In this document: positions 6,997 through 58,816 of the stretch, in pieces | Layout: each line of letters opens with the position of its first letter | Numbering within the stretch: the stretch's first letter is position 1 | Position numbers and translations under genes: made by a program | Source: a virus | Reading direction: 5' to 3' (one strand) | DNA length: 64,000 nucleotides | IMG/VR virus record: IMGVR_UViG_3300045988_180880 | Location: 256,001 to 320,000 of that record | Notes under the pieces: model-generated | Databases searched by the model: none | Told to the model about the DNA's origin: nothing | Seen by the model: the letters and a program-made list of their open reading frames with translations, nothing else

Positions 6997-8008
6997 TTAT
7001 TCATCTAATCTTTCTTGCTTAGACTTCTTAGATATCTCTTCCTCATCCAAATCTCCATAAACTTCCGGAAGCCATCTTTTTAAAATACTGGGAATCAAAT
7101 CATTTCTCACAACATCCTCTAGACCAAATTCAACAATACCTATTTCATCCATATCAGATAATTTTTCCACAGCATATTGTAATCCTTTTTGATTTTTCCC
7201 TGATTTTAAAGAACTCGAATCTAATTGCATTTCATCAGAATTAAAGATATATTTAGAATTAGTTCCTATTCTAGTTAATATCTTAAGAAAAGTATCTCGA
7301 CTGAAGTTCTGGCTCTCAGATATTAAAACAATTGAAGAATCAATATTGTTTCCCCTAAGAAACTGGCTGCCTTTCACTTCTATTTTACCAGCATCTACTA
7401 ACTTTTGAACAATTTCTTTTCCATTTTTTCCTGAAGCATTAAATATCTTCTCCATCGTATAAAAATCTGCTTCTTTATACGGCGCGAGCTTTTCTTGCAA
7501 ATCTCCGCGAAGATCGAATAGGCCTATATTAATTATATAGACTACTAGACTATATCTTAAAAGCGTTTTTATTTTCTTTTCTTCACACATAGTCGTTGAG
7601 AAACTATTTAGGTTAATCTAATTAATAGTTTTTGCTGATTATACTTTAATTTCCAGCATTTCTTGAAGTTTTCCTAAGTTTTATACACCTAGGGGACAAT
7701 CTAACTTATCCAATATTTTCGTCAGGATTAGTAGCTACAGGATAAATAAATACTATTTTTTCATAACCATTATCAGGATTTTTTAATAAATCAAGGGCAG
7801 CGTAAACAGAAACGTATGATTTTCCAGAACCGGCAGGACCCTTAACTATTGTAATTTCGTGATCATAAATAGATTTAAGAAATTCTTTTTGATGCTTAGT
7901 TTTGCATTTAAAATTAATTTTAAAATTCAAAATACTATCTCTTTCTTTTCGAATTAGATCAAGTTCTTCATCTACACTTGATTTAGTAACAGCTTTCTTT
8001 TTAGCCAT
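6997..8008 (-). CDS. phoH: PhoH-like ATPase, 2 exons
   Basis: join(8008..7708,7514..6997) on the minus strand. Exon 1 carries Walker A GPAGSGKS. Exon 2 carries IVLISESQN (Walker B), TRIG and DVVRN. The splice restores ENIG-YLRGDLQEKLAPY, matching the E. coli PhoH block ERLGFLPGDLSQKVDPY with identical spacing. Confidence 0.85.
7515..7707 (-). ncRNA. ORF-less mini group I intron (class A, 193 nt) in phoH
   Basis: P1 pairs exon GGAU with guide GUCC (U.G at the 5' splice site). P2 CCUAGG/CUUAGG, P3 CUUCA/UGAAG. Core blocks: P AAAUGCUGGAAA, Q AAUCAGCA, R UCAACGACUA, S AAGAUAUAGUC. The intron ends in G. Confidence 0.85.
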
Positions 8009-28335: not shown

Positions 28336-29148
28336 ATGTACATAAGAAGAAAAGTATTCTCACTATTACAAGACGGTGAGACAGGAGAAGAGAAGTATTT
28401 TTCTACGACCGATGTAACTTTGGATAATCTTGAAGAAAGAATTTTTAGTATTTCAATTCCAACTGAAGAAGAATTAGAACAAAGAGAATTCGGTGCTAGA
28501 CAGAGAAAACAGAATAGAAAACTAGCTAGATCTATTCACAATGCCGAGATGCAAGCAAATAAAGCAGCTAAGGCACAAGAAAAAGCAGCTAAAATAGTTT
28601 CTAATCCAGCTAATTTAGTTGATGAGAAGAAAATGGAAGAAGCTCAGAAACTTACTAAGAAAGCACAAAAAGCAGTTGAGTCTTCTAATCGTAATGCAGG
28701 TCAAGCTTCTCAACAAGTAAAGAATATCTCTAAAACTAGAAAGTCAGTTGCGACAAATCCGGGAGGTCTTGAAATTAAAAATCAAGGTGCAGGAGATATA
28801 ACTGTTAAGAAAGAAGGTGGTAATGTAACTGCTCATAAAATTGCTTCTAAGAAAAGTGGTCAGACAACAACTACTGTAAGAACAACGTCAACTAAGCCTG
28901 ATGTTGTAGTTGATAAGATGACATCCAAAGGTTCTAAGAAAGTTTCTACAGAGGCAGTAAAGAAATCCGCTGAGAAAACTCAAAAAGTTGCAGAAGTAGC
29001 TCAAAAAACAACAAAAGACTCAAAGAAGATTCTGAATGGGGCTAAAAAATTAATGAACACAAAAGCTGGTAAAATAGCTGGAGGAGTTGCTTTAGCTAGT
29101 GGTGCGATGATCGGGGCTAAAAAGTTATATGATCATAAAAAGAAATAA
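28336..29148 (+). CDS. Lys/Ala-rich N-box protein, paralog of 34367 gene
   Basis: MYIRRKVFSLLQD..GEEKYFSTTDVTL is shared with 34367. It has a C-terminal Gly/Ala hydrophobic segment. Confidence 0.55.
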   Translation: MYIRRKVFSLLQDGETGEEKYFSTTDVTLDNLEERIFSISIPTEEELEQREFGARQRKQNRKLARSIHNAEMQANKAAKAQEKAAKIVSNPANLVDEKKMEEAQKLTKKAQKAVESSNRNAGQASQQVKNISKTRKSVATNPGGLEIKNQGAGDITVKKEGGNVTAHKIASKKSGQTTTTVRTTSTKPDVVVDKMTSKGSKKVSTEAVKKSAEKTQKVAEVAQKTTKDSKKILNGAKKLMNTKAGKIAGGVALASGAMIGAKKLYDHKKK

Positions 29149-29690: not shown

Positions 29691-30149
29691 ATGATGAAAG
29701 TTAAAAGATTTTCTCAAACTCAACCAGATATAGAGTGGCATAAAAACAATATAAATCCAAACTCAGGTAGCAATCTGGAAGATGGAAGTACTCTTTATAA
29801 AGCAAAATCTGGAGATTATCTTTATTTGTATAAAGATGGTGAATGGGTTATTATGAATGGTGTTAATAAATTTATGCAGGATTCTAAATTATATCAAATT
29901 TCAAAATTCGATAAAAACATTCATAATAAGATTGGAGCCGCAGGAGCAGTTATTGGTGGTTTTGTTGGGAGTTTGCCTGGATTAGCAATGGGTAATTTAA
30001 AAACAGCTGCTACAGGGGCTGTGATTGGATCAACTATATCTGGATTATATAATAGAAATAAAGCAAAGAAACGTGCTGAAAATATAGTAAAGGATTACGA
30101 GTCTAAGTATGGTAAGAATGCTTATACTACATTTATGAAAAAGAAGTAA
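29691..30149 (+). CDS. N-box glycine-zipper protein
   Basis: Starts MMKVKRFSQ. Contains IGAAGAVIGGFVGSLPGLAMGNLKTAATGAVIGS. Confidence 0.55.
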   Translation: MMKVKRFSQTQPDIEWHKNNINPNSGSNLEDGSTLYKAKSGDYLYLYKDGEWVIMNGVNKFMQDSKLYQISKFDKNIHNKIGAAGAVIGGFVGSLPGLAMGNLKTAATGAVIGSTISGLYNRNKAKKRAENIVKDYESKYGKNAYTTFMKKK

Positions 30150-30251
30150 ACTATCTTTAATTTTAAATTACTTTTACTATAATTGAATACCTATTCCATT
30201 TTAAGGATGTAGTAAGGAATGATATTCAGTTTATTATATATTTCTAATAAT

Positions 30252-30292
30252 AAAAAAAATGAGATACACTATTCTCACGAACTATGTATCTC
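30252..30292 (+). repeat. REP-A hairpin, copy 1
   Basis: A-run followed by GAGATACA-ctattctcacgaacta-TGTATCTC. The loop sequence is conserved in all 3 copies. Confidence 0.7.
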
Positions 30293-30326
30293 TTGGCAAG
30301 TTACTACAAAAATTAATGTAGCAAGT

Positions 30327-30358
30327 TTAATCCTCATAAAAAATGAGAATTAATTTTT
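30327..30358 (+). terminator. rho-independent-type terminator
   Basis: TTAATCCTCAT/ATGAGAATTAA hairpin followed by TTTTT. Confidence 0.5.
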
Positions 30359-30363
30359 TAAAT

Positions 30364-30383
30364 CATATATAAGGCTTTGAAGT
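30364..30383 (+). promoter_or_regulatory. promoter-like box CATATATAAGGCTTTGAAGT
   Basis: One of 4 near-identical boxes; the others directly precede tRNA genes or an ATG. Confidence 0.4.
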
Positions 30384-30427
30384 GATAAAAATAATACTGT
30401 CTTATTTTCACAAACTGTACTGCCTTT

Positions 30428-30526
30428 TACGACAAATAATAATAATAAAATTACCTTACATAGGTAATTAGTATAAGTTCCAAGTTTTATTGTAGTAAAA
30501 AACTTATACTGATTTATTCTACTACA
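30428..30526 (+). ncRNA. candidate pseudoknotted small RNA, copy X1
   Basis: Hairpins ATTACCT/AGGTAAT and TATAAGTT/AACTTATA. The second loop, GTAGTA, is complementary to the downstream TACTAC. Confidence 0.35.
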
Positions 30527-30537
30527 TACCTTAATGA

Positions 30538-30577
30538 TAAAAAATGAGATACACTATTCTCACGAACCATGTATCTC
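30538..30577 (+). repeat. REP-A hairpin, copy 2
   Basis: AAAAATGAGATACACTATTCTCACGAACCATGTATCTC. Confidence 0.7.
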
Positions 30578-30628
30578 TGCGTAGCAAATTTAATCAACAC
30601 AGATTGTGAAGATTAAATTCTTATATTA

Positions 30629-30648
30629 ACATATATAAGGCTTTGAAG
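30629..30648 (+). promoter_or_regulatory. promoter-like box CATATATAAGGCTTTGAAGT
   Basis: Ends 15 nt upstream of tRNA-Glu. Confidence 0.45.
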
Positions 30649-30663
30649 TCTTATTAAAAATGT

Positions 30664-30735
30664 GGTCCTATCGTCTATCGGTTAGGACGCGAGATTTTCA
30701 TTCTCGAAAGAGGAGTTCGATTCTCCTTAGGACTA
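30664..30735 (+). tRNA. trnE: tRNA-Glu (anticodon TTC)
   Basis: Acceptor GGTCCTA/TAGGACT (G1.U72), D stem GTCT/GGAC, anticodon arm CGAGA-ttTTCat-TCTCG, T arm AGGAG-ttcgatt-CTCCT. Confidence 0.85.
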
Positions 30736-30743
30736 CAAAAGTC

Positions 30744-30864
30744 AACGATGAGATATCGCAAAGACTTATTTAGACATGTTAATAGTGAAAAGGATAGAAT
30801 TAGCTACTCTATCCTCTCACTTTAAATCTAAGTAAGGTTACGTAATAATTGATATCTCGGGAAG
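30744..30864 (+). promoter_or_regulatory. conserved structured leader, copy C
   Basis: AACGATG-AGATATC ... hairpin GGATAGA/TCTATCC ... GATATCT-CGGGAAG. It ends 15 nt before the ATG at 30880. Confidence 0.6.
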
Positions 30865-30879
30865 TGATAATTAAATAAC

Positions 30880-31451
30880 ATGTCTAAAAATGATAAATTA
30901 TTACCTGTACCATTAAAGTACACCTATCCGGTTGTAATGGAAATTTCTCCAAGTAACAAACCATTGAAAAATTAGACATCTATTGTAATAGGTGTGGAAA
31001 GTTTTTTAAACAAACAGCCTATGATCATGTTTATGGATCTGGATGTCCTGATTGTAATAAATTAGGAGGAAAAAGCGCATTAAATGTATTAAAGTGGTTA
31101 GAAACAAATCAAATTGATTATACAAGGGAATATTCTATAAAATTAAATAATAGGAACATTAGAATAGATTATGTTTTTAATTATAATAATTGTTGTTTGT
31201 GGATAGAGTATAATGGACTACAACATTATAAGAAAGTAGATTATTTTCATAAAACAGATGAAGGTTTTCTTAAACAATTAAATAGAGATAATGAAGTTAG
31301 AAAATATTGTAAAGAGAATAATATCATCCTTATAGAAATTCCGTATACATATAACACTTATGAAAAAGTAGAACAATTATTAAATCGAGTAATTTTAAAT
31401 GGAGAGGATATAAACTCTATTATAGATTATTCAAAATTATATAAAATATGA
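30880..31451 (+). pseudogene. deleted/frameshifted zinc-ribbon + Vsr/DUF559-like homing endonuclease
   Basis: The 31-codon N-terminus MSKNDKLLPVPLKYTYPVVM matches the start of the 41879 gene, then stops at TAG 30973. The -1 frame continues from 30972 (LDIYCNRCG...GCPDCN...WIEYNGLQHY...RDNEVRKYCKENNIILIEI) to 31451. The central ~250 aa of the full-length paralog are missing. Confidence 0.6.
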
Positions 31452-33656
31452 AAAAATCAGAAACAATATTTCAAAAGTTATTTTCAGGAATTAGTTTTGG
31501 AAATTCACGTATACCTTTAATTATGTAGTAGAGGCTTAAGATAGAATAAAATCTTAAGAAAATACCTTAAAATGCTGGAAAATATAAAATATAGATCAGC
31601 ATCTCTATTTATCGATTAAAAATAGAGTTCAACGACTATAGTAGGTACTTAGATAATATAGTCTAAATTTAATAAAATATATTAAAATAAATTGTACGTT
31701 CAAATGTATTTAGTAAAGGTGGGGGAAGAGGGTATTCTGTTATTGGAGGAACTGGAAATGGAAGATTCTTAGATAATGAAAGAAATTCGCCCTTACTTGG
31801 TAATTCACAGCCTTCTTCTAGGTTATCCGGTTATCTTGATAGAATGGCAGAGCTTAGGTCATATTATCTTTTAGATATTACAAAGATGGCTACAAATTTC
31901 TTTTCAGATTATGTAGTTAATTTTATATCTCAAGATACCCAACAAATAGTTTCTGTATTAAATCCTGAAGATTCTACAAATAATGAAGCTGTAACTACTC
32001 GATTAAATGAGATTCTTTTAAAAGATATTAAAATAATTGATTATATACGAGACCATATAAATGACTATGTATTTTATGGAGGTTATTATAGTATGCTTCA
32101 AACTCAAAGAGATGAAAAAGGTCATCTTGTATTTAGAACAGAAGAACTTAATAATCCAAATGCAGTAGTTATAAAGAAGAAAAAGAACGAGGATGGAAAT
32201 ATAGAAGATATATTTTTAGCAATCGGAGATGATGGAAATCTATATGAAATTCCTAGTACTGAGGTAATATATATAAGTAATCCTAAACTTCGACTTACAA
32301 ATGATCTCGAAGAAGGATGGAAAGAAAAGTCTAAACCAGAAAAGCCAAAATTAGGAAGAAATAAGGGATCAGAAAATAGAAATAAAGTTCTTAGGAAAGA
32401 ATCATTTATGGCTTCTGAACCGTTATTTTATTCAAGTATTTTGAAGATAAAAGAATTAGTTATAAAAGAGCTTTTGATATCTCTTATTTCGTTAAGAGAT
32501 CTTTCATCGCCTCAATTATTGGGATTAAATACCGATTAAAATTTGTCGGATTAGATAAATAAAATCTAATGGAACTTTGTAAATTGCTGGAAGATCAAGT
32601 AAAGATAAATCAGCAAAAGATAGTAAAAACTACCTTCTCAACGACTAGATACAAAGAGAGAGTTTATATATAAATTCTTAAAGATATAGTCTAGTTTAAC
32701 TAAATAATTGTTAATATTCGAAAAGTGTCCCTCTAGAGACAATGAACGAATTATGCGCTCGATTACAGAAACTTGCAAACAATACGAATGAGTTGTCTTC
32801 ATTCATCACATCTCAGTTCGATGTCACCTCGTTCATTGAGTCTGCATTAACTCAAAATGTTAAGGTTTTTCCTGACTATAATAGTACCATTACCTCAAGG
32901 ACTTCACTACTCCCACTTGATAAATTAACAGACAAACTTTTAGATCTTATACAGAATCTTGATTATGTAAGAAATAGTGTTCTTTCTCCTCTTGGATTAC
33001 CATCTACTATATTAGATGGAACATCTGGCAGTAAGTGGTTAATAAATTGGCCGTCTAGAGAAGCAATTCTTTAGATAATTAGTAAGTAAATTTGGTGAAA
33101 CTATTAATACTAGTAATACCAAGCCTTAGATTAATCTAATTAAGGTATAACGAATAAAGACTTACCAACTTATAAAAAGTTGAATTTATATTCTAAACTA
33201 TAATAAAAAGATTATAGAGATATCATTGCAGTACTTCAACAGTCAGAAAGAGCTAATTCAAGAGTAACATCATTAATTTCAGGAATAAAAGATTCAATAG
33301 TAAATCTTGTTTGTAGTATTTATAAGGTAATATATAATGAAGATTTAGATCCAAGTTTAGTTCAAATTCATATATTCCAGAAAACAACTGTAGAGTATAA
33401 CAATCAGATAAATGAAGCTGAATCAGTTAGTGGTTTAGTTCAAGGTATCTCTGGAGTTTTATCTAATGCACTCCAAACTTTAGAACAAGCAACTCCATTA
33501 ATTGAACCAGAATCATATTTAAGTTATATTCAAAACTTACTTAAAGATATTGACCCAAGTACAGAATCTCTAATAAATGAAGATACGATTAAGCAGTATA
33601 TAGAATTTCTTAATCAAAAACTTCAGGCACAACGAGAACAGCTTGGACTCAGTTAA
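31448..33656 (+). CDS. portal protein (putative), 4 exons
   Basis: join(31448..31517,31695..32536,32721..33039,33229..33656), about 552 aa. The block LSPLGLPSTILDGTSGSKW-SVLQQSERANSRVTSLISGIK resembles the conserved portal stem/clip region. The ATG overlaps the stop of the upstream endonuclease remnant (ATGA). No homology search was done. Confidence 0.6.
31518..31694 (+). ncRNA. mini group I intron class A (177 nt), portal intron 1
   Basis: P1 CCUU/GAGG, P2 CUUAAGAU/AUCUUAAG, P3 UACCU/AGGUA. Core blocks P AAAUGCUGGAAA, Q GAUCAGCA, R UUCAACGACUA, S UAAUAUAGUC. It ends AAAUUG. Confidence 0.8.
32537..32720 (+). ncRNA. mini group I intron class A (184 nt), portal intron 2
   Basis: P1 CCGAU/GUCGG, P2 AUUAGAU/AUCUAAU, P3 CUUUG/CAAAG. 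Core blocks P AAAUUGCUGGAAG, Q AAUCAGCA, R UCAACGACUAGA, S AAGAUAUAGUC. It ends UAUUCG. Confidence 0.85.
33040..33228 (+). ncRNA. class B mini intron (189 nt, group I-like architecture), portal intron 3
   Basis: Shares AGUAAGUAAAUU, GGUGAAA, UAACGAAUAAAGACUUAC, AAUUUAUAUUCUAAACUAUAAUA and AUUAUAGA with the terL element. Proposed P1 is UGGU/GCCG and P2 is UCUAGAGAA/UUCUUUAGA. It ends CAUUG. Boundaries are tentative. Confidence 0.6.
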
Positions 33657-33671
33657 AATTATTCAAAGAAG

Positions 33672-34037
33672 ATGATAATTAAACGTAAATTATTTGCTTC
33701 TAATGATCCCACTCCAGAACAGTCTCCAGAAATTGGTCTAGCTAAACAAGAAATGACTTCTAAGGACTTGCAAATAGAACAAATGAGACTTCAACGTCAA
33801 ATCCTAGAAACTCAGAGAATGCGACAGAGAATGCAAGCTGAGGAAAGAATGCAAGAAATGAAGCAAGTCAATCAAACTCAGAAACTAGAACAGAAAAAGG
33901 ATGAAGCTCAAAAAGATAATCAATTAAAAGTAAAGAAAATTGACGCTCAGAATAGTAGGCAGGAAGTAAATAATATAGGATTGTACAAAACAAAATCAAA
34001 GCCTACGCCAACAGTATCAATGAAAACAAACTTGTAA
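33672..34037 (+). CDS. N-box coiled-coil protein
   Basis: Starts MIIKRKLFASND; Gln/Met/Arg-rich. Confidence 0.55.
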   Translation: MIIKRKLFASNDPTPEQSPEIGLAKQEMTSKDLQIEQMRLQRQILETQRMRQRMQAEERMQEMKQVNQTQKLEQKKDEAQKDNQLKVKKIDAQNSRQEVNNIGLYKTKSKPTPTVSMKTNL

Positions 34038-34041
34038 GATT

Positions 34042-34134
34042 ATGATTAAAGAAAAGACATTTACAGAAGGAGTGGAAGATTCTAAAGAACAAGAAGAGAA
34101 AGGATTTGATCCACTAAGACCGTATATAAAATGA
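34042..34134 (+). CDS. 30-aa N-box-like micro-ORF
   Basis: MIKEKTFTEG...; its stop overlaps the next ATG (ATGA at 34131). Confidence 0.3.
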   Translation: MIKEKTFTEGVEDSKEQEEKGFDPLRPYIK

Positions 34135-34364
34135 AAATTAAAAGATTTTCCGGTTATTCAGAAGCTGCCCCTGAAGGTGTAACTTATCAAAAATCAAGTC
34201 AGGTAATTACAAGATATATTCTTGATCCTCTTGATTCTAGTGTAGATACCTTAGAAGAAACAGATAAACTTGGGGTAACTAAACGAAAGAGTGATAGAAT
34301 TAAGAAGGTAATAAAACCTCTTAAAAAATATTTTAAATATAAATCAAATAAAAACAGTAATTAA
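34131..34364 (+). CDS. small N-box protein
   Basis: Starts MKIKRFSGYSE. Confidence 0.5.
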   Translation: MKIKRFSGYSEAAPEGVTYQKSSQVITRYILDPLDSSVDTLEETDKLGVTKRKSDRIKKVIKPLKKYFKYKSNKNSN

Positions 34365-34366
34365 GT

Positions 34367-34951
34367 ATGTATATTAGACGTAAAGTATTCTCATTACTAC
34401 AAGATGAGACAGGAGAAGAGAGATACTTCTCTACTACTGATGTAACACTGGAAAATGAGGAAGAGAGAACCTTTAGTGTTGCAGAAGATGCAGAAAGTTT
34501 GGAAGAAAAGGATTTCTCTGATAAAAAAAAAGAGGAAGATGATGAGCCAAAACTTACAACTAGTGATAAGATTAATATTAAGTTGAATAAAGCTCTGATT
34601 ACTAAGAAGGATCGCGAAGCATTTGTTGAAGCTTATGAAGATGGAAAATCTCATAAATACGGAAAACAGGCAGCTAAGTATGCAGCAATTGGTAATGGTA
34701 TAGGTGGCGGTATATTAGGTGCTGCAGTTGGTGGTAAAAAGGGTGCAGCTATTGGAGCCGGAATTGGCGCTGTTTCAGGTGCAGCAGGATCTTATGCTGG
34801 TACTAGAGCAGGTGTTGCACTTAATAAGCTTGCTAGAAAACATAGTGGTAGTCTTGATACTAAAACAAAATTAGCAGTAGATCGAGTAAAAGTAGCAGAT
34901 GGAAAAATGACAAAAGAAGAATTTGCTAAAAAATGGAGATCTAAGAAGTAA
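34367..34951 (+). CDS. N-box glycine-zipper protein, paralog of 28336 gene
   Basis: Starts MYIRRKVFSLLQDETGEERYFSTTDVTL. Contains AAIGNGIGGGILGAAVGGKKGAAIGAGIGAVSGAAGSYAG. Confidence 0.6.
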   Translation: MYIRRKVFSLLQDETGEERYFSTTDVTLENEEERTFSVAEDAESLEEKDFSDKKKEEDDEPKLTTSDKINIKLNKALITKKDREAFVEAYEDGKSHKYGKQAAKYAAIGNGIGGGILGAAVGGKKGAAIGAGIGAVSGAAGSYAGTRAGVALNKLARKHSGSLDTKTKLAVDRVKVADGKMTKEEFAKKWRSKK

Positions 34952-35096: not shown

Positions 35097-35992
35097 ATGA
35101 TAGGAACAGTTAACCCATTTAGTGACCCTGAATTTAAGAAACAAATTTTAGGGAAAGAAGGGAGAGCTGTTGATGACCCGGGAGATTATGAGATTTTGCA
35201 GCCGGAAGAGGATGTATCTAAAAACCTAAAAAATATTATAGGGTCAGCTCCAGTACTCCCTAAAACGGCTCGCAATATTATTATGGATGCTAGTGCTATT
35301 GCGAGTAATCAAAAAGAACAAAAAGCACTAGAATTAACTCATAAATTGAATGAAGTCTTTACTAGTTATAATAAAGAATATAATATAGATCTTCATGTTG
35401 ATTTCGGAAGCCTCTCAAATACTTTAGTTAATGTGGCAGATCCGAAGTCTAGACATATCTTAGAATTATATGTTTCTGAGGTATTTCAAAGTATAAGACC
35501 TATTTTAATTCTCAATATGATTTCTAAACTTTGTCTTTGTATTGATTATATACTCGATCCAATGAGACTCTTTGATAGTTCACAAATGACTTTACAAGAT
35601 TCATTTATTGCCGTTAATATATCTGCGGCTTAGTTGAAATACTAAGAAAATTATACTAAAATGCTGAAAGATAGTTAAAACATAAATCAGCAAAAAGGAT
35701 TACTAATATAAATCCTTTCTCAACGACTAAATGTATAACTAAATTTGAAATATAATTTAGATGATATAGTCTAATTTAATAAAATAAATATTAAAAATAG
35801 ATATGAGAAAAAATTATGCAATTTATTCAACAATTAGAAGATATGAAGAGTCAGATAATTGTTAAAGGTTCTGATCTTGAATTGAAAAAAATTGCAGAAG
35901 AATCTGGAAATGAAGAGTTGAATAGTGAAGAGTCTAAGCAAATAGTAGCAGACTTTATGAGATTATTTCAAAAAGAACATGGAATAGAATAA
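35097..35992 (+). CDS. hypothetical morphogenesis-module protein, 2 exons
   Basis: join(35097..35614,35806..35992). The junction reads ...DSFIAV-EKIMQFIQQLEDMK.... Function unknown. Confidence 0.65.
35615..35805 (+). ncRNA. mini group I intron class A (191 nt)
   Basis: P1 CCGU/GCGG, P2 CUUAG/CUAAG, P3 UAUAC/GUAUA, P6 AGGAUU/AAUCCU. Core blocks P AAAUGCUGAAA, Q AAUCAGCA, R UCAACGACUA, S UGAUAUAGUC. It ends GAUAUG. Confidence 0.8.
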
Positions 35993-38392: not shown

Positions 38393-40490
38393 ATGATTAA
38401 TTTCACAGACCATTTTGATCCCACTAAAAATATAGAAAAAGATTTAGCAAAAGTAGATCTTAGGGATCAATACACATCATTAACAGAAGATGAAAAGATA
38501 ATGGTATTTCTTCGTCTCAAAGGATTTACACACAGACCTCCAACGATAGAAAGATTATATTCTGATGATTATTATTTAGGTAGTCAGGAATTTTTTGATC
38601 ATGGAGATGTAATATTTCCTTTTTGGAAAGATGGATTGAAGAGAATTTTTCCAAATGAAGTTACAACAGCAAAACCATTACTCTGTTTGTCAGGAGCTAT
38701 TGGTATAGGTAAGTCTACGGTATCTAAATTAGCTATGACAAATACACTAGCTAGGTTAAGTTGTATGGCTAATCCGTGGAGAACATTTAAATTAGGTAAA
38801 AAACCACTTAGTTTTATCATCTTTCATAGAGATGAAGATGTAGCAAATGCTGAATTTCGAAGATGGATGCTAGATGATGTATTAAAGCAGAGTCCATTTT
38901 TTAGAAATTTACCACACAGACATAATATAAGAATATTAACTTCTGGTCCTAGGGGTAATGTAGTATAAAAAGTTGCCCTCCATATTAAGAAATTATATGG
39001 TAATAAAGTAAGTAAATTCGGTGAAAGGATAATCCCAATACCGAGTCAAGGATCTTAGATAAATCTAAGTAATCTTTGATGTAACGAATAAAGACTTACT
39101 AACTTATATAATTATATAAGTTAAATTTATATTCTAAACTATAATAGAGTATTATAGAAATAGATTGGCAGGTGGACTAGGAACTGACTTGATTTTTGCA
39201 ATCATGTCTGAGGTCAATTTTTGGCCTAACGAAGAAAAAGCCATGGAACGTGTAAATAGTACGTATATTCGTATTACATCTCGTTTTGATGTAAAAGAAA
39301 GTTTAACATTAGCCGGAAATCTAATAATTGATAGTTCTAGTAGAGGTGCAGGTGGTCCAACTGAAATATTTCTTGAGAATGCAGAACCTCAATTTACTTG
39401 GGATTGTAGACCTTCTCATTATGAAGTTAGAAAAAATCTGTACGAACGTTCAAGGGGAATAACTTTCTCAGTTTATACTGGAGATGGTAAATATCCTCCA
39501 AGAATATTAAATAAAAATGATAAAGAAGAGAACTATAAATTAGAAGATGATCAAGACCCTGATAGAGTGGAACATGTACCTATTCAATTATTTGGAGAAT
39601 TTAAATCTGATTTGATTAAAGCTCTTCAAGATAAATCTGGTATTAATACAGGATCATCAGATAGTTTTTTTGGAGGTACTATAGAACACTTATCTAAATG
39701 TTCAACAATAAAGAATAGAATTCCTGAAATTATTACAGTTGATTTTTATGATAAAGAAGATAGGATTATTAATCATGTAGAAAAAATGATTAATCTTATT
39801 CCAAAAGGTACTCCTATATGGCTAGGTCTTGACTTAGGTGTAGTAGATGATACAACTGGAATAGCAGCAGTTAGTTTTGATCATTGGGAAAATATAAATG
39901 GTACTTTAGTTCCTAAGGTTAAATGTCATTTTGTTTTAGGTGTATCTAGGTTAGAAGGACAAGAGACGAGTTTATTTCACATAGAGCAGTTTATAGAAGA
40001 TCTTAACAAGAAATTTAATATTATAGTTAGTGCTGACCAAGCTTTTTCTAAACAAATACTTCAATATTGTGAAAGAGAAGGAATTAGAAATAATGGGAGA
40101 ATTTCTACAGATAATACTCCTTGTGAACCGGCTCTTTATTTGAAGTATATAATAAACAATGAACTTCTTGAAATTCCTGAATATAAAAGATTACAAAGAG
40201 AGGCATATGATTTAAGATATGTTGGTCCAAAACGTAAAGTAGATCATCCTAAAAAAGCATCAATATCTCCATTATTTGATAATCCTGATGGTTCTAAGCC
40301 AGGAAGCAAGGATTTATGGGATGCTTTAGCTTCTAGTGTTTATTCTTTAAAATTATCTATTGATGAAGGAGAAGAGATGGGATATTCTTCAGGAATAGCT
40401 AAACAACTCGAATCTCTTACTAAAATAACAGCGGATCCAAGAGAAGAGTCACAAAAAGAACTTCAAAACATGTTGGAAAATATATTTTAA
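38393..40490 (+). CDS. terL: terminase large subunit, 2 exons
   Basis: join(38393..38956,39168..40490). Walker A SGAIGIGKST is in exon 1. Walker B LIFAIMSE and the RNase H-like nuclease motif WLGLDLGVVDDTTGIAAVS are in exon 2. The junction reads ILTSGPRG-AGGLGTDLIFAIMSE. Confidence 0.8.
38957..39167 (+). ncRNA. class B mini intron (211 nt, group I-like architecture) in terL
   Basis: P1 GGGGU/GCCCU (U.G at the splice site), P2 CCAUAU/AUAUGG, P3 GUAAGU/ACUUAC, proposed P7 GAAUAAA/UUUAUaUUC, P8 AACUUAUAU/AUAUAAGUU, P9 CUAUAAU/AUUAUAG. It ends GAUUG. Confidence 0.65.
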
Positions 40491-43347: not shown

Positions 43348-45137
43348 ATGAAATTTATTGCAAAATTGTTTTCGACAATGCTACCTGCATCTGACAGTAG
43401 TATGATACCTCGAGATGTTGCGGAATCTTTCTTTAGTAGCCAAGAGTTTAAACAAGCCTTAGAGGATAGAAAGCTCTTTGGAACATTAACACACTTAGCC
43501 AGAAATCTATCATCTGCCAAAAATGGTGGTCCTGCAGTATCTAAGACTATAGGGAAAGATGATCTCCTTTATTGCTAATAATGAGAGGCATAGATAAAAA
43601 GTTTATGAAAATGTTTTTAATTGCTGGAAAAAATAATAAATTAAATCAGCAAAAATAGATAATAAAATCTATTTCTCAACGACTAGAGTAAACACTAAGA
43701 ATACCGATTAATTCTTAGATAATATAGTCTATTATTGATTTTAAAATCAATTAGGTTAAGTTATTAATTGGCGAAAGTTCACCTACACATGTGTTAACTA
43801 AAGTTTGGTTCGAAAATGACGGCTGGTGCTATGGGGAGTTTGAGGTTCTCTCCGAAGATGGCCTAGACGATGAAGCTATACAAAGAATCAGAAGAGTAAA
43901 GGGCCTTCTTAAAAATGGTTGCAAAATTGGAATTTCCTGTGTCGTTCTTTAATTAACTGAGACTTAAGAAATTCATAAGTTCTTAAGAAAATTTCATAAA
44001 ATGCTGGAAAGGTTAGAATCAAATCAGCATCATCTAGCAGATAGCGAGATGTTCAACGACTAAAGATGGAACCTAGATTTTTAGGATAATATAGTCTAAA
44101 TTTAATAGCAAGCAATATATTAAAAAAAATTGGGATATTGGGAAAATTCTAGCGGAAGTGACTATTTAAAGCGTATGGTTGCGCTAAAAGGGGCTGACCT
44201 TACATTAAACCCTTCTTGGAAAAATGCGGGTATAGTTTCAATTGATGGTTCTGAGAGCGAAAAAACATTCTCTGAACTTGATATAGAGTATGATCCTGAA
44301 GCTTATAAGGATACAAAAATAAAAGTTAAGCAATTTTCTAACTTCGATTCGGGAGATTTATTAAAGTCTTCTAAGATTAATGGAAAGTTTACGCAATTAA
44401 AAGCTAAATCATTTTCATTTAATTCTGAAATAAATTCAATAGAAGATACTATCGTTAGTGAATCTGTAATAGAAGAACCTATTCAAAAAGATTTCTCAGT
44501 TGCTACAGTTAAAGAGAGAGTTAGAATTGGAAAGATGTCCCCTCGCCAAAGATTTCGTCTACTTGTTTTAGAATATAAGCAAGCAGTAAAACAAGCTGGT
44601 GGTTCTGAAAAGATGGATCCAGAAACACTTAAAATCATGAAGTCTTTGTTTACTACAGATCTTTTGGATATTATGAAGTCGATTACACCAGAAATCATGA
44701 ATGGAAAAAATCCAGGAACATTACTTGGTGCTTCTAGTTTAGGTAAGAATGTACGTAAATAATATGCGTTTTTTATATGAATTGCTGGAAATATCTAAAT
44801 GAGATAAATCAGCATCAAATCATACTTAGATAAATCTAAAGAAGTGATTTGTTCAACGACTATGTATATAAACTGTCAAAATAGACAGAAGATATAGTCT
44901 AAATTATAAATAAATTTTATAAATACATTGATAAGTGTACAAAAATTGTTCTTACCATATAAGATGGCTATGTCTGAGGTATCTAAAACTAATGCAATAT
45001 CTAAGGCAAGATATCAAAAAATTCAAGCTGCTTATTCTGACTTTGTTAATGCAATGTTAGAGGAAATATTCGCGCCAAAGAATGGTACGAAGAAAGAAGA
45101 GCCAGTAGAAGAAGAAAACCCTGAAGAAAACAGTTAA
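43348..45137 (+). CDS. prohead protease (HK97/S78-like) with C-terminal scaffold-like extension, 4 exons
   Basis: join(43348..43573,43771..43949,44133..44756,44931..45137). LFGTLTHLARN lies in exon 1. GLLKNGCKIGISCVVL-GYWENS spans the exon 2/3 junction and resembles the Ser-containing ..G.S.G. block. The family call is by eye only. Confidence 0.55.
43574..43770 (+). ncRNA. mini group I intron class A (about 197 nt), protease intron 1
   Basis: P3 UGUUU/AAACA. Core blocks P UAAUUGCUGGAAA, Q AAUCAGCA, R UCAACGACUAGA, S UAAUAUAGUC. P9 is AUUGAUUUU/AAAAUCAAU and it ends UAAUUG. The 5' boundary is ambiguous: P1 is either UUUAUU/GAUAAA (used here) or CUUU/GAGG ending at 43570. Confidence 0.7.
43950..44132 (+). 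ncRNA. mini group I intron class A (183 nt), protease intron 2
   Basis: P1 UCUU/GAGA, P2 CUUAAGAA/UUCUUAAG, P3 UUUCAU/AUGGAA. Core blocks P AAAUGCUGGAAA, Q AAUCAGCA, R UUCAACGACUA, S UAAUAUAGUC. It ends AAAUUG. Confidence 0.85.
44757..44930 (+). ncRNA. mini group I intron class A, P2-less (174 nt), protease intron 3
   Basis: P1 ACGU/GCGU, P3 UAUAU/AUAUA. Core blocks P GAAUUGCUGGAAA, Q AAUCAGCA, R UUCAACGACUA, S AAGAUAUAGUC. It ends ACAUUG. Confidence 0.85.
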
Positions 45138-55901: not shown

Positions 55902-58816
55902 ATGGCACAATGGACTGAAACTCTCGAACCGTATGTAAAAGTTATAGAGAGAGTACATACCGCAGCTCTTAATCCTACTGCAGGTGAAAGTTTAATTATC
56001 GGAGTGACTTTAATTTCTGATGCAGGCCCAGCAGTTCCTACACTGATCTCTAGTCAATCTGAATTCTTAAAAACTTATGCTTCAGGGGACTTAACAGAAG
56101 ATTATATGGCATCCTTGAATAATCTTTATCATGATGCTAATAATACAGGAGATAAAAATGTAGCTGCAACAATGTGGATGAATGCTTATAGATTGGCTGG
56201 CTCTAATGTTATGCTGGTTTGTAGAGCATCTAAAGCTAACGATATCTACTACGCTAAACCCATGACTAAAACTGATTATAGTACATATATCCTTAGAGAT
56301 GGTGCTTTAATGAAGGGATTTAGAGATGCTGATAAAGGTGTCGTTAAGTTTGTTCTTGATATTGATGGTGATGATGCAGAACATGATCAAGATGGATGGT
56401 CAATTAATTTGAATGGAGTAGGTATTCTTGGTAATCGTACCACCGATGATGGTCCTCAATATGATTACTATGTAAGAACTCTCCCCGACTTAGTAAATCA
56501 AATGAATGAAACTAATAAATTCTTCTCTCCATCTTATAAATTCTTCACAGATCCTAATAATATCATCTCTGAAAATGAAACAACTGATCCCGATAAAGCA
56601 AAGGCAGTTGTATTCTATGAACTTTATCTAGGACAGGATATGCTAGATACTTCAGACTCTAGATGTCCACTAGGAAAGCAGTATATCGTGATTTGTGAAC
56701 CTGATTGGACTAGTGATAATCCTAATCAAAAACTTATAGATATTAATGCTTCCGCTTGGTCTGGTTTCGAAGAACAGAAATATTATGCAGTTAATCAATA
56801 TAACTCTAATACTGATCTGAGAGTTAGAATTAGACGTTTTAATCATGATGCAGTAGTTACCAAAGAATTAACTAACCCCGCTTTGAACGAAAACTCTGAT
56901 TCTCCTTATATGGTACTATCGGCCGTTCTAGATACCTATACTAAGAAAGGAACAGTAGAACCGTCAGAAAGTATCCTACAGCGAGATTTTTATGAAGTCG
57001 CTGTTCTTGATCCTAATATTTCTGACGAAGTACAGTTCTTTAATATAGGTAAAGTAACCGGCCGTGGAGATATGGAAGTATCAGAACTCAATGAACTCCT
57101 AAGTATGATTCAACTTCAACTCCCTGACGATATGAGAGAGCTTGGATTGAACTACTATGGATACGGAGCTGATGATAAAGTATGGGTAGAACTTGATCCT
57201 AATGACCCAAATGCAGGTTCTTATAAGCAAACAGTTTCTTCAATGACTGATCTTTACAACTCAATAGGTATGTCAGTTGGAGATGTTTACCGAGTTGGAT
57301 CTGGAAGTTCATATAAGTACTATGAATATCAAGAAAATGGTGGAGATCAAGTTTATGCAAAATTAGGCGTAGATCCAACTGAAACAGATATTCTTGACGT
57401 ATCTGAATCGGATCTTAAGAAAGCACTTGACGAAATCAATATTCAGGAAATTTATGTGGTTGAAGGATTATGTGACCTTGGAAATACATCACTAAGTTTC
57501 CAGAATTACTTGGCTAATATGGCTATCAACTCTAACTATTTCTATCCAATATCAACAGTTCAGAGCACAAATTATATGACTATCGCTAATAATGCAACTA
57601 AGATAGCACAAGATTCATATAAACTCTATCTATCTGCACCTTGGGATATCGACTCTGGTACATTTGGATGGAAATATTATTGCTCACCTGCTGTTGTTTA
57701 CTGGGAAGCTGTAGCTAGAAACCGTAGAAATAATGCAGAATTTGCTCCTGTACTTGGACAAACTAATGGTATTGTTCAGTATCAGAGACCTATGACAGAG
57801 TTTAATAAAAAAACTCGTCAACTTCTATTATCTAAACGAGTAAATACTGTACTCTGGAATTATCAAACTAATGCTTGGAACATGAATGATAAACAAAATT
57901 GTCCAATTTATTGAAATTGAATTTTTATGAACTGCTGGGATTTATATAAAAAAAATAAAAATCAGCAAAAAGGATTACTAATATAAATCCTTTCTCAACG
58001 ACTAAGTATAAAAGATAAATAAATTTTATTATTTTTCAAGATATAGTCTAGCGAAATTACCAAATAATTTTCTAAAACGAATTATACTAAGCAAAGTGTG
58101 GATAATATTGTTTCAGATGAAGGTAACTCTCGTTTAGCTATTCGTATCTCAAAAGCTATGCCTGTACTACTTAAACAGTATATAGGCTGGAGAATTGCAC
58201 CAAAACTATGGGAAAGTGCGATTGGAACTATCGATTACTGGTTTAAATCAACTATTCTCCCAATGTCTTATAATATCGATGATTACCGTATTATCATCGA
58301 TGAGACAAATAACCCTGTTCAAATTCAGCGTAAATAATTGCGCCTTGGATTTTTATATTACCAAGAAAAATAAGAGAATTGCTGGAAGATAATAAAATAA
58401 ATCAGCAAAGAAAGTTTACAAAAATTTTCTCTCAACGACTATGTACTTATTAAAATGATATAGTCTGATCTTAAATATTAATCTTATATTTAAGTTTAAC
58501 AATAATGCAGAATAAAATGGTGGTTAACGTTTTGGTTAGATACCAGAGAGCTTTGAAATATGTCATCGTAAAGTATATGCGATTATTATACCAATTGCTG
58601 GAACTTAATAAATCCAAAGAATCAGCAAAAATAGATATAATTCTATTTCTCAACGACTAGATGTATAATTAAAATTTCATGAAGATTTTAAAAGATATAG
58701 TCTGAACATGAGTAGATAATACTTAGCAAACATATTGATATCACGACATTTTCGACGTTGGTATGCAACTTGCAGTCTCAGAGTACGAAGATACTAGAGG
58801 AGCAGCCCTTGAATAA
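55902..58816 (+). CDS. tail-sheath-like protein, 4 exons
   Basis: join(55902..57909,58099..58331,58508..58569,58738..58816). The N-terminus GESLIIGVTLISDAGPAVPTLISSQSEFLKTYASG resembles sheath proteins. So do the C-terminal blocks PAVVYWEAVARNRRNNAEFAPVLGQTNG, KRVNTVLWNYQTNAWNMND and NKMVVNVLVRYQRALKYVIV. The family call is by eye; the exon 2 start may be 58102. Confidence 0.6.
57910..58098 (+). ncRNA. mini group I intron class A, P2-less (about 189 nt), sheath intron 1
   Basis: P1 AAUUU/GAAUU, P3 UUUUAU/AUAAAA, P6 AGGAUU/AAUCCU. Core blocks P GAACUGCUGGGA, Q AAUCAGCA, R UCAACGACUA, S AAGAUAUAGUC. The 3' boundary is G 58098 or G 58101. Confidence 0.7.
58332..58507 (+). ncRNA. mini group I intron class A (176 nt), sheath intron 2
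   Basis: P1 GCGU/GCGC, P2 CUUGG/CCAAG, P3 UAAG/CUUA, P9 CUUAAAUAU/AUAUUUAAG. Core blocks P GAAUUGCUGGAAG, Q AAUCAGCA, R UCAACGACUA, S UGAUAUAGUC. It ends AAUAAUG. Confidence 0.8.
58570..58737 (+). ncRNA. mini group I intron class A, P2-less (168 nt), sheath intron 3
   Basis: P1 AUCGU/GCGAU, P3 UAUAC/GUAUA. Core blocks P CAAUUGCUGGAAC, Q AAUCAGCA, R UCAACGACUAGA, S AAGAUAUAGUC. It ends AUAUUG. An alternative 3' site after G 58725 would give a different C-terminal peptide. Confidence 0.75.

What the first reader, a model, noticed from the sequence alone, without database searches (positions are those of the whole stretch)
31448..33656. Portal-like gene split into four exons by three introns of two different classes
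Exon 1 is only 70 nt (MKKSETIFQKLFSGISFGNSRIP + one nt) and starts at an ATGA overlap with the stop of a decayed endonuclease gene. Introns 1 and 2 are class A; intron 3 (33040-33228) is class B. The proposed junctions read IP-L-RSNVFSKGGG, LGLNTD-KSVPLETMNEL and GTSGSKW-S-VLQQSERANSRV. Exon 4 (33229-33656) is missing from the ORF track because it contains no start codon. I translated it codon by codon and it is open to TAA 33654-33656.
Basis: partly seen in the sequence, partly recalled or inferred. Interest (0 to 1): 0.7.

Follow-up and report, generated by a model that had tools for sequence, protein, structure and literature searches.

The report
Portal gene with three self-splicing introns

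Summary
Joining 31448-31517, 31695-32536, 32721-33039 and 33229-33656 gives a 552-aa ORF. It aligns without a gap at any of the three junctions to more than 100 uninterrupted homologues of 546-582 aa. Natural intron-less alleles exist for each intron, with exactly the predicted borders: L001 lacks introns 2 and 3, and L007 lacks introns 1 and 3.

All three inserts are compact group I introns of 177, 184 and 189 nt.
- Each 5' exon ends in U, which pairs with G in P1, and each intron ends in G.
- The P7 and J8/7 sequences resemble the Tetrahymena core (compared from memory).
- The long-range helix P3 covaries across 31 copies (p = 1e-14).
- Rfam RF00028 aligns intron 2 end to end, but at 38 bits, below the cut-off of 50.

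Introns 1 and 2 belong to one sequence family ("class A") and intron 3 to another ("class B"). A structure model of a 77%-identical homologue matches portal proteins in Foldseek, whereas sequence profiles find nothing.

The window is about 99.9% identical to 371-387 kb gut contigs. These fit the published Jug phages, for which 2513 group I introns and a fragmented portal gene were reported. The finding is therefore correct but already known in kind.

Details that may be new: at least six intron sites in this gene across the population, and class A variants of 166-177 nt, intron 1 among them, that lack helix P8.

The parts
30880..31451 (+). Decayed free-standing homing-endonuclease gene. It consists of a short N-terminal ORF at 30880-30975, then a frameshift, then an open frame without a start codon that runs to the TGA at 31449-31451.
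   Evidence: ORF list and reading of the sequence. The 159-aa C-terminal frame matches phrog_559 'HNH endonuclease' (E=1.2e-28, profile positions 278-409 of 607), phrog_9084 'homing endonuclease' and phrog_7140 'intron encoded nuclease'. It also gives a weak DUF4379 zinc-ribbon hit. Different parts of it are deleted in L001 (window 30739-31214 absent) and in L007 (30880-31031 absent).
31448..31517 (+). Portal exon 1 (70 nt; MKKSETIFQKLFSGISFGNSRIP plus the first base of codon 24)
   Evidence: The N-terminus matches homologues that begin MKKSE...NSR(I/V)PLRSNVF. In L007 it is fused directly to exon 2 in a single 304-aa ORF.
31518..31694 (+). Intron 1: class A group I intron, 177 nt, phase 1, P8-less variant
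   Evidence: It is absent from L007 exactly at 31517|31695. By inspection, P1 is CCUU/GAGG with U.G at the splice site, P10 is UAC/GUA, P3 is UACCU/AGGUA, the P7 strands are CGACUA and UAGUCU, and the last base is G. Only 19 nt lie between the 5' strand of P7 and ATAGTCT, so a P8 hairpin does not fit. RF00028 gives only 13 bits over part of the model.
31695..32536 (+). Portal exon 2 (842 nt, residues 24-304)
   Evidence: The frame is open from 31695 but has no start codon before 31844. Residues 24-73 are nevertheless conserved in homologues, so exon 2 must be joined to exon 1 to be translated in full.
32537..32720 (+). Intron 2: class A group I intron, 184 nt, phase 0, with a full P1-P9 set
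   Evidence: It is absent from L001, which reads ...GAT|AAG... at this point. RF00028 Intron_gpI aligns end to end (model 1-253, 38.3 bits, E=1e-8 in a 201-nt search; gathering score 50). That alignment recovers P1 CCGAU/GUCGG, P2, P3 CUUUGU/ACAAAG, P4-P6, P7, P8, the J8/7 sequence AAGAUAUAGUC, and P9.
32721..33039 (+). Portal exon 3 (319 nt, residues 305-410 plus the first base of codon 411)
   Evidence: In L007 this stretch carries three further class A introns, after CDS nt 935, 999 and 1082.
33040..33228 (+). Intron 3: class B group I intron, 189 nt, phase 1
   Evidence: It is absent from L001 and L007, which read GGT|CA... and TGG|CAA... with nothing in between. An unconstrained MFE fold of this copy and of two divergent class B copies recovers P1, P2 (with a GCAA loop here), P3 enclosing P4-P6, P8 and P9 in each. 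P7 ACGAAUA/UAUUCU was found by inspection. Compensatory changes are visible in P1, P2, P4, P5, P6 and P8 among the three copies. RF00028 gives 14.8 bits, E=0.11.
33229..33656 (+). Portal exon 4 (428 nt, residues 411-552 plus the TAA stop)
   Evidence: It has no start codon and is not in the ORF list. It translates openly to TAA at 33654-33656 and is 100% identical to L001 across the junction.

Best explanation
The region encodes the portal (head-to-tail connector) protein of a Jug-type jumbo phage of gut Bacteroides/Phocaeicola. The gene is interrupted by three ORF-less group I introns of 177-189 nt. The gene is transcribed as one pre-mRNA. Each intron folds into the group I core: P1 is formed by the last bases of the upstream exon and an internal guide sequence, P3-P9 make up the core, and P7 holds the guanosine-binding pocket. 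Each intron excises itself by the two-step guanosine-initiated transesterification. This joins the exons into a 1659-nt mRNA for a 552-aa protein. In-frame stop codons lie 0-11 codons inside each intron and release ribosomes before they can unfold the ribozyme.

Shown here: the exon borders, the intron-less alleles, the group I sequence and structure hallmarks, and the portal fold. Inferred: splicing at the RNA level, and whether it proceeds without protein help.

The introns are or were mobile. They are present or absent independently among nearly identical phages, they sit in the most conserved codons of the gene, and exon divergence is concentrated around their sites. Because they carry no endonuclease gene, the most likely route of spread is recombination after cleavage by free-standing homing endonucleases. 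One such gene lies, decayed, directly upstream of exon 1. This last step is inference only.
For: Junctions:
- The spliced product is 552 aa.
- It aligns gap-free at all three junctions to 13 homologues, among them P0001, which is 98% identical and uninterrupted across junctions 2 and 3.
- More than 100 full-length homologues were found.
- DNA of L001 lacks introns 2 and 3, and DNA of L007 lacks introns 1 and 3, at the exact predicted bases.

Group I nature:
- Every 5' exon ends in T and every intron ends in G.
- P1 with a U.G pair can be drawn for all three.
- RF00028 aligns intron 2 over its full length at 38.3 bits and introns 3 and 1 in part.
- P3 duplex energy for cognate pairs is -4.26 kcal/mol against -1.60 for non-cognate pairs, Mann-Whitney p=1e-14, over 31 contexts and 26 distinct duplexes.
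- MFE folds of three divergent class B copies each give the P1-P2-P3[P4-P6]-P8-P9 layout.

Portal:
- Foldseek returns portal or connector entries throughout the top 50 PDB hits, and portal-annotated proteins among most of the named top BFVD hits.

Expression is needed: the 5' 150 nt of exon 2 and all of exon 4 have no start codon yet are conserved.

The same three-intron allele is about 99.9% identical in nine independent assemblies of 200-387 kb. Its ORF fragments are seen on 606 and at least 1000 contigs.

Literature: in Jug phages, 37 of 76 predicted group I introns had metatranscriptome support for splicing, and the portal gene is described as fragmented (PMC12880540).

Mobility:
- There are six insertion sites, after CDS nt 70, 912, 935, 999, 1082 and 1231.
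- 20 of the 37 window-versus-L001 mismatches lie in the 100 nt around the intron 2 site.
Against: - No RNA data for this gene were available here.
- At gathering thresholds Rfam finds no group I intron anywhere in the window. Even at E<=10 it finds none in a 3.5-kb search. All RF00028 scores are below the curated cut-off of 50.
- Intron 1 lacks P8, a helix of the canonical core, so its autonomous activity is uncertain.
- The portal assignment rests on a mediocre model (mean pLDDT 60, TM-scores 0.3-0.47) of a homologue, not of the window protein itself. Sequence profiles find no portal family.
Confidence: 0.92

Rival explanations
1. The gene is truly split. The fragments are translated separately and assemble non-covalently into the portal, or only some fragments are used. 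The inserts are unspliced spacers or dead mobile elements.
For: Gene callers and GenBank treat the pieces as separate hypothetical proteins (UWG86803.1 of 231 aa; UWG86804.1/DAG94993.1 of 110 aa). Exon 2 and exon 3 each contain an internal ATG.
Against: Exon 4 (142 aa, the best-conserved part) has no start codon at all, and residues 24-73 of exon 2 lie upstream of the first ATG yet are conserved. Introns 1 and 3 split codons, and the rejoined codons give exactly the residues of the intron-less alleles (L24, S411). The inserts carry the group I core with covarying helices.
Confidence: 0.03
2. The inserts are group I-derived RNAs that no longer self-splice. They would depend on a phage or host protein, or on help from other intron copies. 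This applies especially to the P8-less intron 1.
For: Intron 1 and at least 7 other class A contexts lack room for P8. The introns are 21-25% G+C, with short A/U-rich helices. Only 37 of 76 predicted Jug introns had RNA support in the published data (PMC12880540).
Against: The P8-less form has spread to several sites with matching changes in P1 and P3. It also sits in an essential gene of the dominant genotype. It is therefore removed in vivo by some means. Nothing here separates autonomous splicing from assisted splicing.
Confidence: 0.2
3. The gene product is not the portal but another large virion or non-virion protein.
For: There is no sequence-level match to any portal family. The model has low confidence over about 43% of residues.
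Against: Every one of the top 50 PDB Foldseek hits is a named portal or connector entry, from unrelated phages (P1, T4, G20c, SaPI1, T7, SU10 and others). The best BFVD hit, a portal protein, has E=2.4e-20 over 553 columns. The size of 552 aa is typical. The Jug phage paper also lists a fragmented portal gene.
Confidence: 0.08

Closest known systems
Group I introns of Jug (jumbo gut) phages (Sci Adv 2026, PMC12880540; preprint PMC12363816)
   Same: This is the same phage clade. The window is about 99.9% identical to 371-387 kb gut contigs and has 30.7% G+C. It shows the same phenomenon: many short (mean about 206 nt) ORF-less group I introns in essential genes, numerous free-standing HNH/PDDEXK_5/GIY-YIG endonucleases, and a portal gene reported as 'fragmented'. 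Splicing of terL and nrdD introns was shown there by metatranscriptome reads.
   Different: The main text illustrates terL and nrdD, not the portal gene. I could not read the tables that list individual introns (S8, S12), so I cannot say whether these three, and the P8-less intron 1 in particular, were detected. [quoted passage not shown] The anatomy here is that of ordinary, very compact splicing introns.
Staphylococcus phage Twort orf142, one gene with three group I introns (Landthaler and Shub 1999; recalled from memory)
   Same: A single phage gene is interrupted by three self-splicing group I introns that lack endonuclease ORFs.
   Different: As I recall, the Twort introns are larger (about 250 nt or more), were assigned to subgroup IA2, and were shown to splice in vitro. 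The introns here have no P7.1/P7.2 insertions and are 177-189 nt.
Small bacterial tRNA group I introns (Azoarcus tRNA-Ile, about 205 nt; cyanobacterial tRNA-Leu), subgroup IC3 (from memory)
   Same: The architecture is compact and has no P5abc, P7.1/7.2 or P9.1/9.2 extensions. The J3/4-P4 sequences are similar (AAAUUCGGUGAAA in class B).
   Different: These sit in protein-coding phage genes, are shorter still (166-190 nt), and are very A/U-rich. Subgroup assignment was not tested, because no subgroup models were available.
Collaborative homing: a free-standing endonuclease next to an ORF-less intron (cyanophage S-PM2 psbA intron with F-CphI; Zeng, Bonocora and Shub 2009; from memory)
   Same: An endonuclease gene lies immediately upstream of an intron-containing gene, the intron itself carries no ORF, and intron presence varies among related phages.
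   Different: Here the endonuclease is a frameshifted, truncated remnant. No cleavage site is known, and the link between it and intron 1 is inferred only from position.
Group I introns and inteins of crAss-like phages (Yutin et al. 2021, PMC7886860)
   Same: Abundant gut phages of Bacteroidota whose essential genes are broken by self-splicing introns.
   Different: A different phage order, with much smaller genomes. Some of those phages also use alternative genetic codes. No recoding is needed here, since the spliced ORF is open under table 11.

Membership tests
Group I self-splicing intron | The 5' exon ends in U, which forms a U.G wobble pair with an internal guide sequence (P1) | tested here: met
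   Exons end ...CCTT...CCGAT and ...GTGGT. The guide sequences GAGG, GUCGG and GCCGU lie 8-14 nt inside the introns. The four L007 introns do the same. P1 covaries among class B copies: GUGGU/GCCGU, GGGGU/GCCCU, GAGGU/GCCUU.
Group I self-splicing intron | The last intron nucleotide is G (omega-G) | tested here: met
   The introns end ...AAATTG...ATATTCG and ...TCATTG. All four L007 introns also end in G.
Group I self-splicing intron | Conserved core of P3-P4-P5-P6-P7-P8-P9, with the P3/P7 pseudoknot and a bulged nucleotide next to the G-C pair of P7 | tested here: inconclusive
   Introns 2 and 3 have every helix. P7 is A(C)GACUA/UAGUCU in class A and A(C)GAAUA/UAUUCU in class B. P3 covaries strongly. 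Intron 1 has P1-P7 and P9 but no room for P8 (19 nt between the 5' strand of P7 and ATAGTCT).
Group I self-splicing intron | Match to Rfam RF00028 at the gathering score (50 bits) | tested here: not met
   Scores are 38.3 bits (intron 2, full-length alignment), 14.8 bits (intron 3) and 13.0 bits (intron 1) in searches of about 200 nt. Nothing was found in the whole-window gathering scan or in the 3.5-kb scan at E<=10.
Group I self-splicing intron | Precise excision that restores the reading frame | tested here: met
   This was shown at the DNA level only. Intron-less alleles and uninterrupted homologues match the predicted junctions exactly.
Group I self-splicing intron | Guanosine-dependent self-splicing of the RNA | not testable with these tools
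   This needs in vitro splicing or RNA-seq. The published metatranscriptomes support splicing for 37 of 76 Jug introns (PMC12880540), but the per-intron table was not readable here.
Phage portal protein | Portal fold (wing, stem, clip and crown) | tested here: met
   An AF2 model of P0002 (77% identical; pLDDT 60) gave only portal or connector entries in the top 50 PDB hits (best E=7e-6). The best BFVD hit is a portal protein at E=2.4e-20. Domain-by-domain correspondence was not examined.
Phage portal protein | Sequence-profile match to a portal family (Pfam, PHROGs or PDB) | tested here: not met
   No family was found in Pfam or PHROGs. There was no significant PDB hit with a 14-sequence profile, and no tblastn hit in 50,697 phage records.
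Phage portal protein | Forms the dodecameric ring at one capsid vertex | not testable with these tools
   This needs virion proteomics or cryo-EM.
Jug (jumbo gut) phage clade | Genome of 360-402 kb from gut metagenomes, about 30% G+C, with many group I introns and free-standing endonucleases | tested here: met
   The downstream 121-aa protein occurs on ENA contigs of 371-387 kb. Nine loci are 99.8-99.95% identical to window 30001-34100. Fragments are seen on contigs of up to 403 kb. Window G+C is 30.7%. The window holds at least 12 introns. Direct comparison with the genomes named in the paper was not possible.

The most novel reading that the evidence does not exclude
Intron 1 and its relatives would be natural group I introns that splice without helix P8. 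That would make them, at 166-177 nt, the smallest self-splicing group I ribozymes known, with a reduced catalytic core. These relatives include the 166-nt and 171-nt introns of L007, the copy at window 58336-58510, and at least four further contexts in IMG/VR contigs. The P8-less form would also have multiplied to new sites in essential genes by retargeting its P1 and P3 sequences. The portal gene would be a hot spot, with at least six sites. Such introns score only about 13 bits against RF00028 and may be under-counted in the published census.
Probability: 0.35. Interest if true: 0.6.

Novelty: already known. Interest (0 to 1): 0.27.

Why it matters
For annotation: in public records this essential gene appears as unrelated 'hypothetical proteins' (231 aa and 110 aa), with the first and last exons not called at all. 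Standard Rfam scanning misses the introns. The exact exon map gives the true 552-aa portal of one of the most abundant human-gut jumbo phages.

For biology: it is a clean example of several ORF-less group I introns coexisting in one structural gene and varying independently among near-identical genomes. That makes it useful material for studying how endonuclease-less introns spread.

For ribozyme research: the P8-less 166-177 nt variants are candidates for a naturally minimised group I core.

The main phenomenon itself is published, so it is not a discovery.

Tried and rejected
- Rfam at gathering thresholds on the whole window found only tRNAs. Rfam at E<=10 on 30700-34200 found no group I hit. 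Hits appeared only when each intron was searched alone.
- Pfam and PHROGs on the spliced protein found nothing. A PDB sequence-profile search gave only noise. tblastn and megablast against 50,697 phage records found no homologue; the only DNA hits were a tRNA and two short matches to unannotated records.
The homologue P0002 was modelled instead.
- The supplementary tables of the Jug paper that list individual introns and RNA support were not held or were truncated. No mention of the portal gene was found in them.
- Literature searches for P8-less or smallest group I introns returned nothing useful.
- Stop-codon recoding was rejected: each intron has 4-10 stops of mixed type in every frame.
- Inteins were rejected for the same reason.
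- Translational bypassing was rejected because the gaps are 177-189 nt and fold as group I cores.
- Assembly artefact was rejected because the same structure appears in at least 9 independent assemblies.
- A formal covariance model of class A was not built. A test of cognate against non-cognate P3 duplexes was used instead.
Full report
**1. What is in the sequence**

The window is A/T-rich (30.7% G+C), phage-like, and carries ten tRNA genes. They are 31448-31517, 31695-32536, 32721-33039 and 33229-33656.

My first attempt placed the start of exon 3 one base early. The intron phases are 1, 0 and 1.

Exon 1 starts at an ATGA overlap with the stop of the upstream ORF. Exon 4 has no start codon and is absent from the ORF list. 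Each insert has 4-10 stop codons in every frame and is 21-25% G+C.

**2. Are the junctions real?**

Yes. A search with the spliced protein found 396 homologues. The listed 120 are almost all single ORFs of 546-582 aa that cover 100% of the query at 59-77% identity. Some lie on contigs of up to 396 kb.

In a 14-sequence alignment there is no gap at any of the three junctions, and each junction lies in a block of invariant residues. These blocks are R21/P23/S26/N27, D304/K305/P308, and G407/K409/W410/L413-R422.

Decisive evidence comes from near-identical alleles.
- Contig L001 is 98-100% identical in DNA. It reads straight from window 33039 to 33229, and from ...GAT to AAG... at the intron 2 site, while keeping intron 1.
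- Contig L007 fuses exon 1 to exon 2 at 31517|31695 and also lacks intron 3.

Every one of the three introns therefore has a natural intron-less counterpart with exactly the predicted borders.

**3. What are the inserts?**

Both classes are group I introns. All three follow the rule that the upstream exon ends in U and the intron ends in G. For each, a guide sequence 8-14 nt inside the intron pairs with the exon end through a U.G wobble. The P1 pairings are CCUU/GAGG, CCGAU/GUCGG and GUGGU/GCCGU.

*Class A (introns 1 and 2).* These share the motifs UUGCUGGAA...AUCAGCA (P4/P5), UCAACGACUA (J6/7-P7) and AAGAUAUAGUCU (J8/7-P7'). From memory, the last is the same as in the Tetrahymena intron.

Rfam's RF00028 did not report the introns in the whole-window scan or in the 3.5-kb scan. 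When intron 2 was searched alone, the model aligned end to end (positions 1-253, 38.3 bits, E=1e-8, cut-off 50). That alignment reproduces P1, P2, P3, P4-P6, P7, P8, J8/7 and P9. Introns 3 and 1 gave partial matches of 14.8 and 13.0 bits.

As an independent test of the long-range helix P3, I took all distinct class A copies in the window and the fetched loci (31 contexts). I compared the duplex energy of each copy's own P3 strands with that of mismatched partners. The means were -4.26 and -1.60 kcal/mol (Mann-Whitney p=1e-14), with 26 distinct duplexes (first run).

*Class B (intron 3).* Three divergent copies were compared: window 33040-33228, window about 38957-39167, and L004. Unconstrained MFE folds give the same layout for each: P1, P2, P3 enclosing P4-P5-P6, then P8 and P9. 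Compensatory changes are visible in P1, P2, P4, P5, P6 and P8. P7 (ACGAAUA/UAUUCU, with a bulged C) was identified by eye.

Neither class has P5abc, P7.1/7.2 or P9.1/9.2 extensions. The organisation resembles the small IC3 introns, but I could not test subgroup membership.

**4. What does the gene encode?**

Sequence methods fail: Pfam, PHROGs, a PDB profile search and tblastn against phage genomes all found nothing.

The tool would not accept the spliced sequence, so I modelled P0002 (77% identical, uninterrupted) with a 36-sequence alignment. Mean pLDDT was 60, with residues 60-230 and 420-460 modelled well.

Foldseek against the PDB returned only portal or connector structures in the top 50 hits: P1 at E=7e-6, then T4 gp20, G20c, SaPI1/80alpha, T7, SU10 and others. 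BFVD gave a portal protein at E=2.4e-20, followed mostly by portal-annotated proteins and unnamed entries. TM-scores are modest (0.3-0.47). I therefore put the portal assignment at about 0.9, not as certain.

**5. Which phage, and is this known?**

The 121-aa protein encoded just downstream occurs in thousands of assemblies, including contigs of 371-387 kb. Nine fetched loci are 99.8-99.95% identical to window 30001-34100, all three introns included. The 231-aa and 110-aa ORF fragments are seen on 606 and at least 1000 contigs, of up to 403 kb. In GenBank they appear as separate hypothetical proteins UWG86803.1 and UWG86804.1.

This matches the 'Jug' phages described in Sci Adv 2026 (PMC12880540). 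That paper reports:
- genomes of 360-402 kb with about 30% G+C, and Bacteroides/Phocaeicola as hosts;
- 2513 group I introns in 136 of 139 genomes, with a mean length of about 206 nt;
- many free-standing HNH/PDDEXK_5/GIY-YIG endonucleases;
- metatranscriptome support for splicing of 37 of 76 introns.

The phenomenon is therefore published for this very clade. I could not read the per-intron tables.

**6. How it most likely works**

The gene is transcribed as one pre-mRNA and the three ribozymes self-splice. Stop codons 0-11 codons into each intron terminate any ribosome that enters. The ligated mRNA is then translated into the 552-aa portal subunit.

Splicing is required, because the conserved residues 24-73 and all of exon 4 have no start codon of their own.

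The introns vary independently among genomes. L007 has a five-exon allele. It carries intron 2 plus three further class A introns of 166, 171 and 190 nt, inserted after CDS nt 935, 999 and 1082. Its spliced product is again 552 aa and is 94.6% identical to the window's. The gene therefore has at least six insertion sites.

Exon mismatches between alleles cluster around these sites. Twenty of the 37 differences from L001 lie within 100 nt of the intron 2 site. The differences from L007 peak at CDS nt 951-1100 and 1201-1250. This is the pattern expected from co-conversion during homing or recombination.

The introns carry no ORF. A frameshifted, truncated homing-endonuclease gene abuts exon 1 and has suffered different deletions in L001 and L007. 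A 'collaborative homing' arrangement is therefore plausible, but it is purely inferred.

**7. What remains odd**

Intron 1 has no room for helix P8. Only 19 nt separate the 5' strand of P7 from ATAGTCT, against 27-39 nt in copies that carry P8. The short form occurs in at least 8 contexts with different P3 helices, so it is a propagating architecture rather than a one-off lesion.

Whether it splices unaided is unknown. This is the most novel reading left open.

**8. Verdict**

The inserts are group I introns and the product is very probably the portal protein. In kind, this is already described for Jug phages.

Interest is low to moderate. The added value lies in the exact exon map, the six-site polymorphism and the P8-less mini-introns.

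Noticed in passing
window 7547-7658(-), 31573-31664, 32585-32692, 35662-35772, 43622-43730, 44002-44097, 44783-44900, 57933-58049, 58380-58466, 58596-58703 (class A cores); 33040-33228 and ~38957-39167 (class B): The 64-kb window holds at least 10 class A and 2 class B group I intron cores. That is a much higher density than the published mean of 18.5 introns per ~375-kb genome would suggest. Either the structural-gene region is a hot spot or the published census misses many copies.
   Followed up: partly
window 31518-31694 and 58336-58510; L007 8735-8900 and 8965-9135; L013, L022, L029: Class A variants of 166-177 nt lack helix P8. Only 17-19 nt lie between the 5' strand of P7 and J8/7-P7'. 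They occur in at least 8 contexts with different, covarying P3 helices. They look like deletions of the 5' strand and loop of P8.
   Followed up: partly
L007 7619-9985 (ENA ERZ27261632 k119_58320, 200 kb): An alternative portal allele lacks introns 1 and 3, keeps intron 2, and has three extra class A introns inside 'exon 3'. All four of its introns have T| and G| borders, and the spliced product is 552 aa. ORF fragments of 304, 421, 394, 241 and 220 aa in the same protein cluster suggest still more intron combinations.
   Followed up: yes
window CDS nt ~851-950 (around 32536|32721), compared with L001 1490-1560: Exon sequence flanking the intron 2 site is strongly diverged between the intron-plus and intron-minus alleles. 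There are 20 mismatches in 100 nt, in a gene otherwise 98-100% identical. This is consistent with a co-conversion tract or an endonuclease-resistant target variant.
   Followed up: partly
window 30880-31451: The endonuclease remnant upstream of the portal gene is decaying differently in different genomes. It is frameshifted in the window, missing 30880-31031 in L007, and missing 30739-31214 in L001, where the tRNA-Glu gene abuts the remainder. Its C-terminal part is about 68% identical in DNA to the 3' end of a 569-aa HTH-containing ORF elsewhere in related loci.
   Followed up: partly
window ~30264-30383 and ~30549-30668 (upstream of tRNA-Glu at 30664-30736): There is a partial tandem duplication of the region upstream of tRNA-Glu. 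Window 30349-30536 is absent from L003 and L009, and L001 has a single copy joined directly to the tRNA.
   Followed up: no
window 28336-29148 and 34367-34951: Two ORFs on either side of the portal gene share a nearly identical N-terminus (MYIRRKVFSLLQD(G)ETGEE(K/R)YFSTTDVTL...). The second ORF and the ORF at 29691-30149 have weak glycine-zipper matches. Their function is unknown.
   Followed up: no
window 31844-32539 and 32742-33074: Public records annotate the exon 2 and exon 3 fragments as separate hypothetical proteins (UWG86803.1; UWG86804.1/DAG94993.1). The 110-aa record includes the intron-encoded read-through tail LINWPSREAIL. Exons 1 and 4 are not called in the gene tables of the related loci fetched here.
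   Followed up: yes
window 35097-35992: The 178-aa ORF at 35097-35633 is followed at once by a class A intron (core 35662-35772) and then by further coding sequence, so it looks like another split gene. The Jug paper mentions a fragmented prohead protease, but I did not identify this gene.
   Followed up: no
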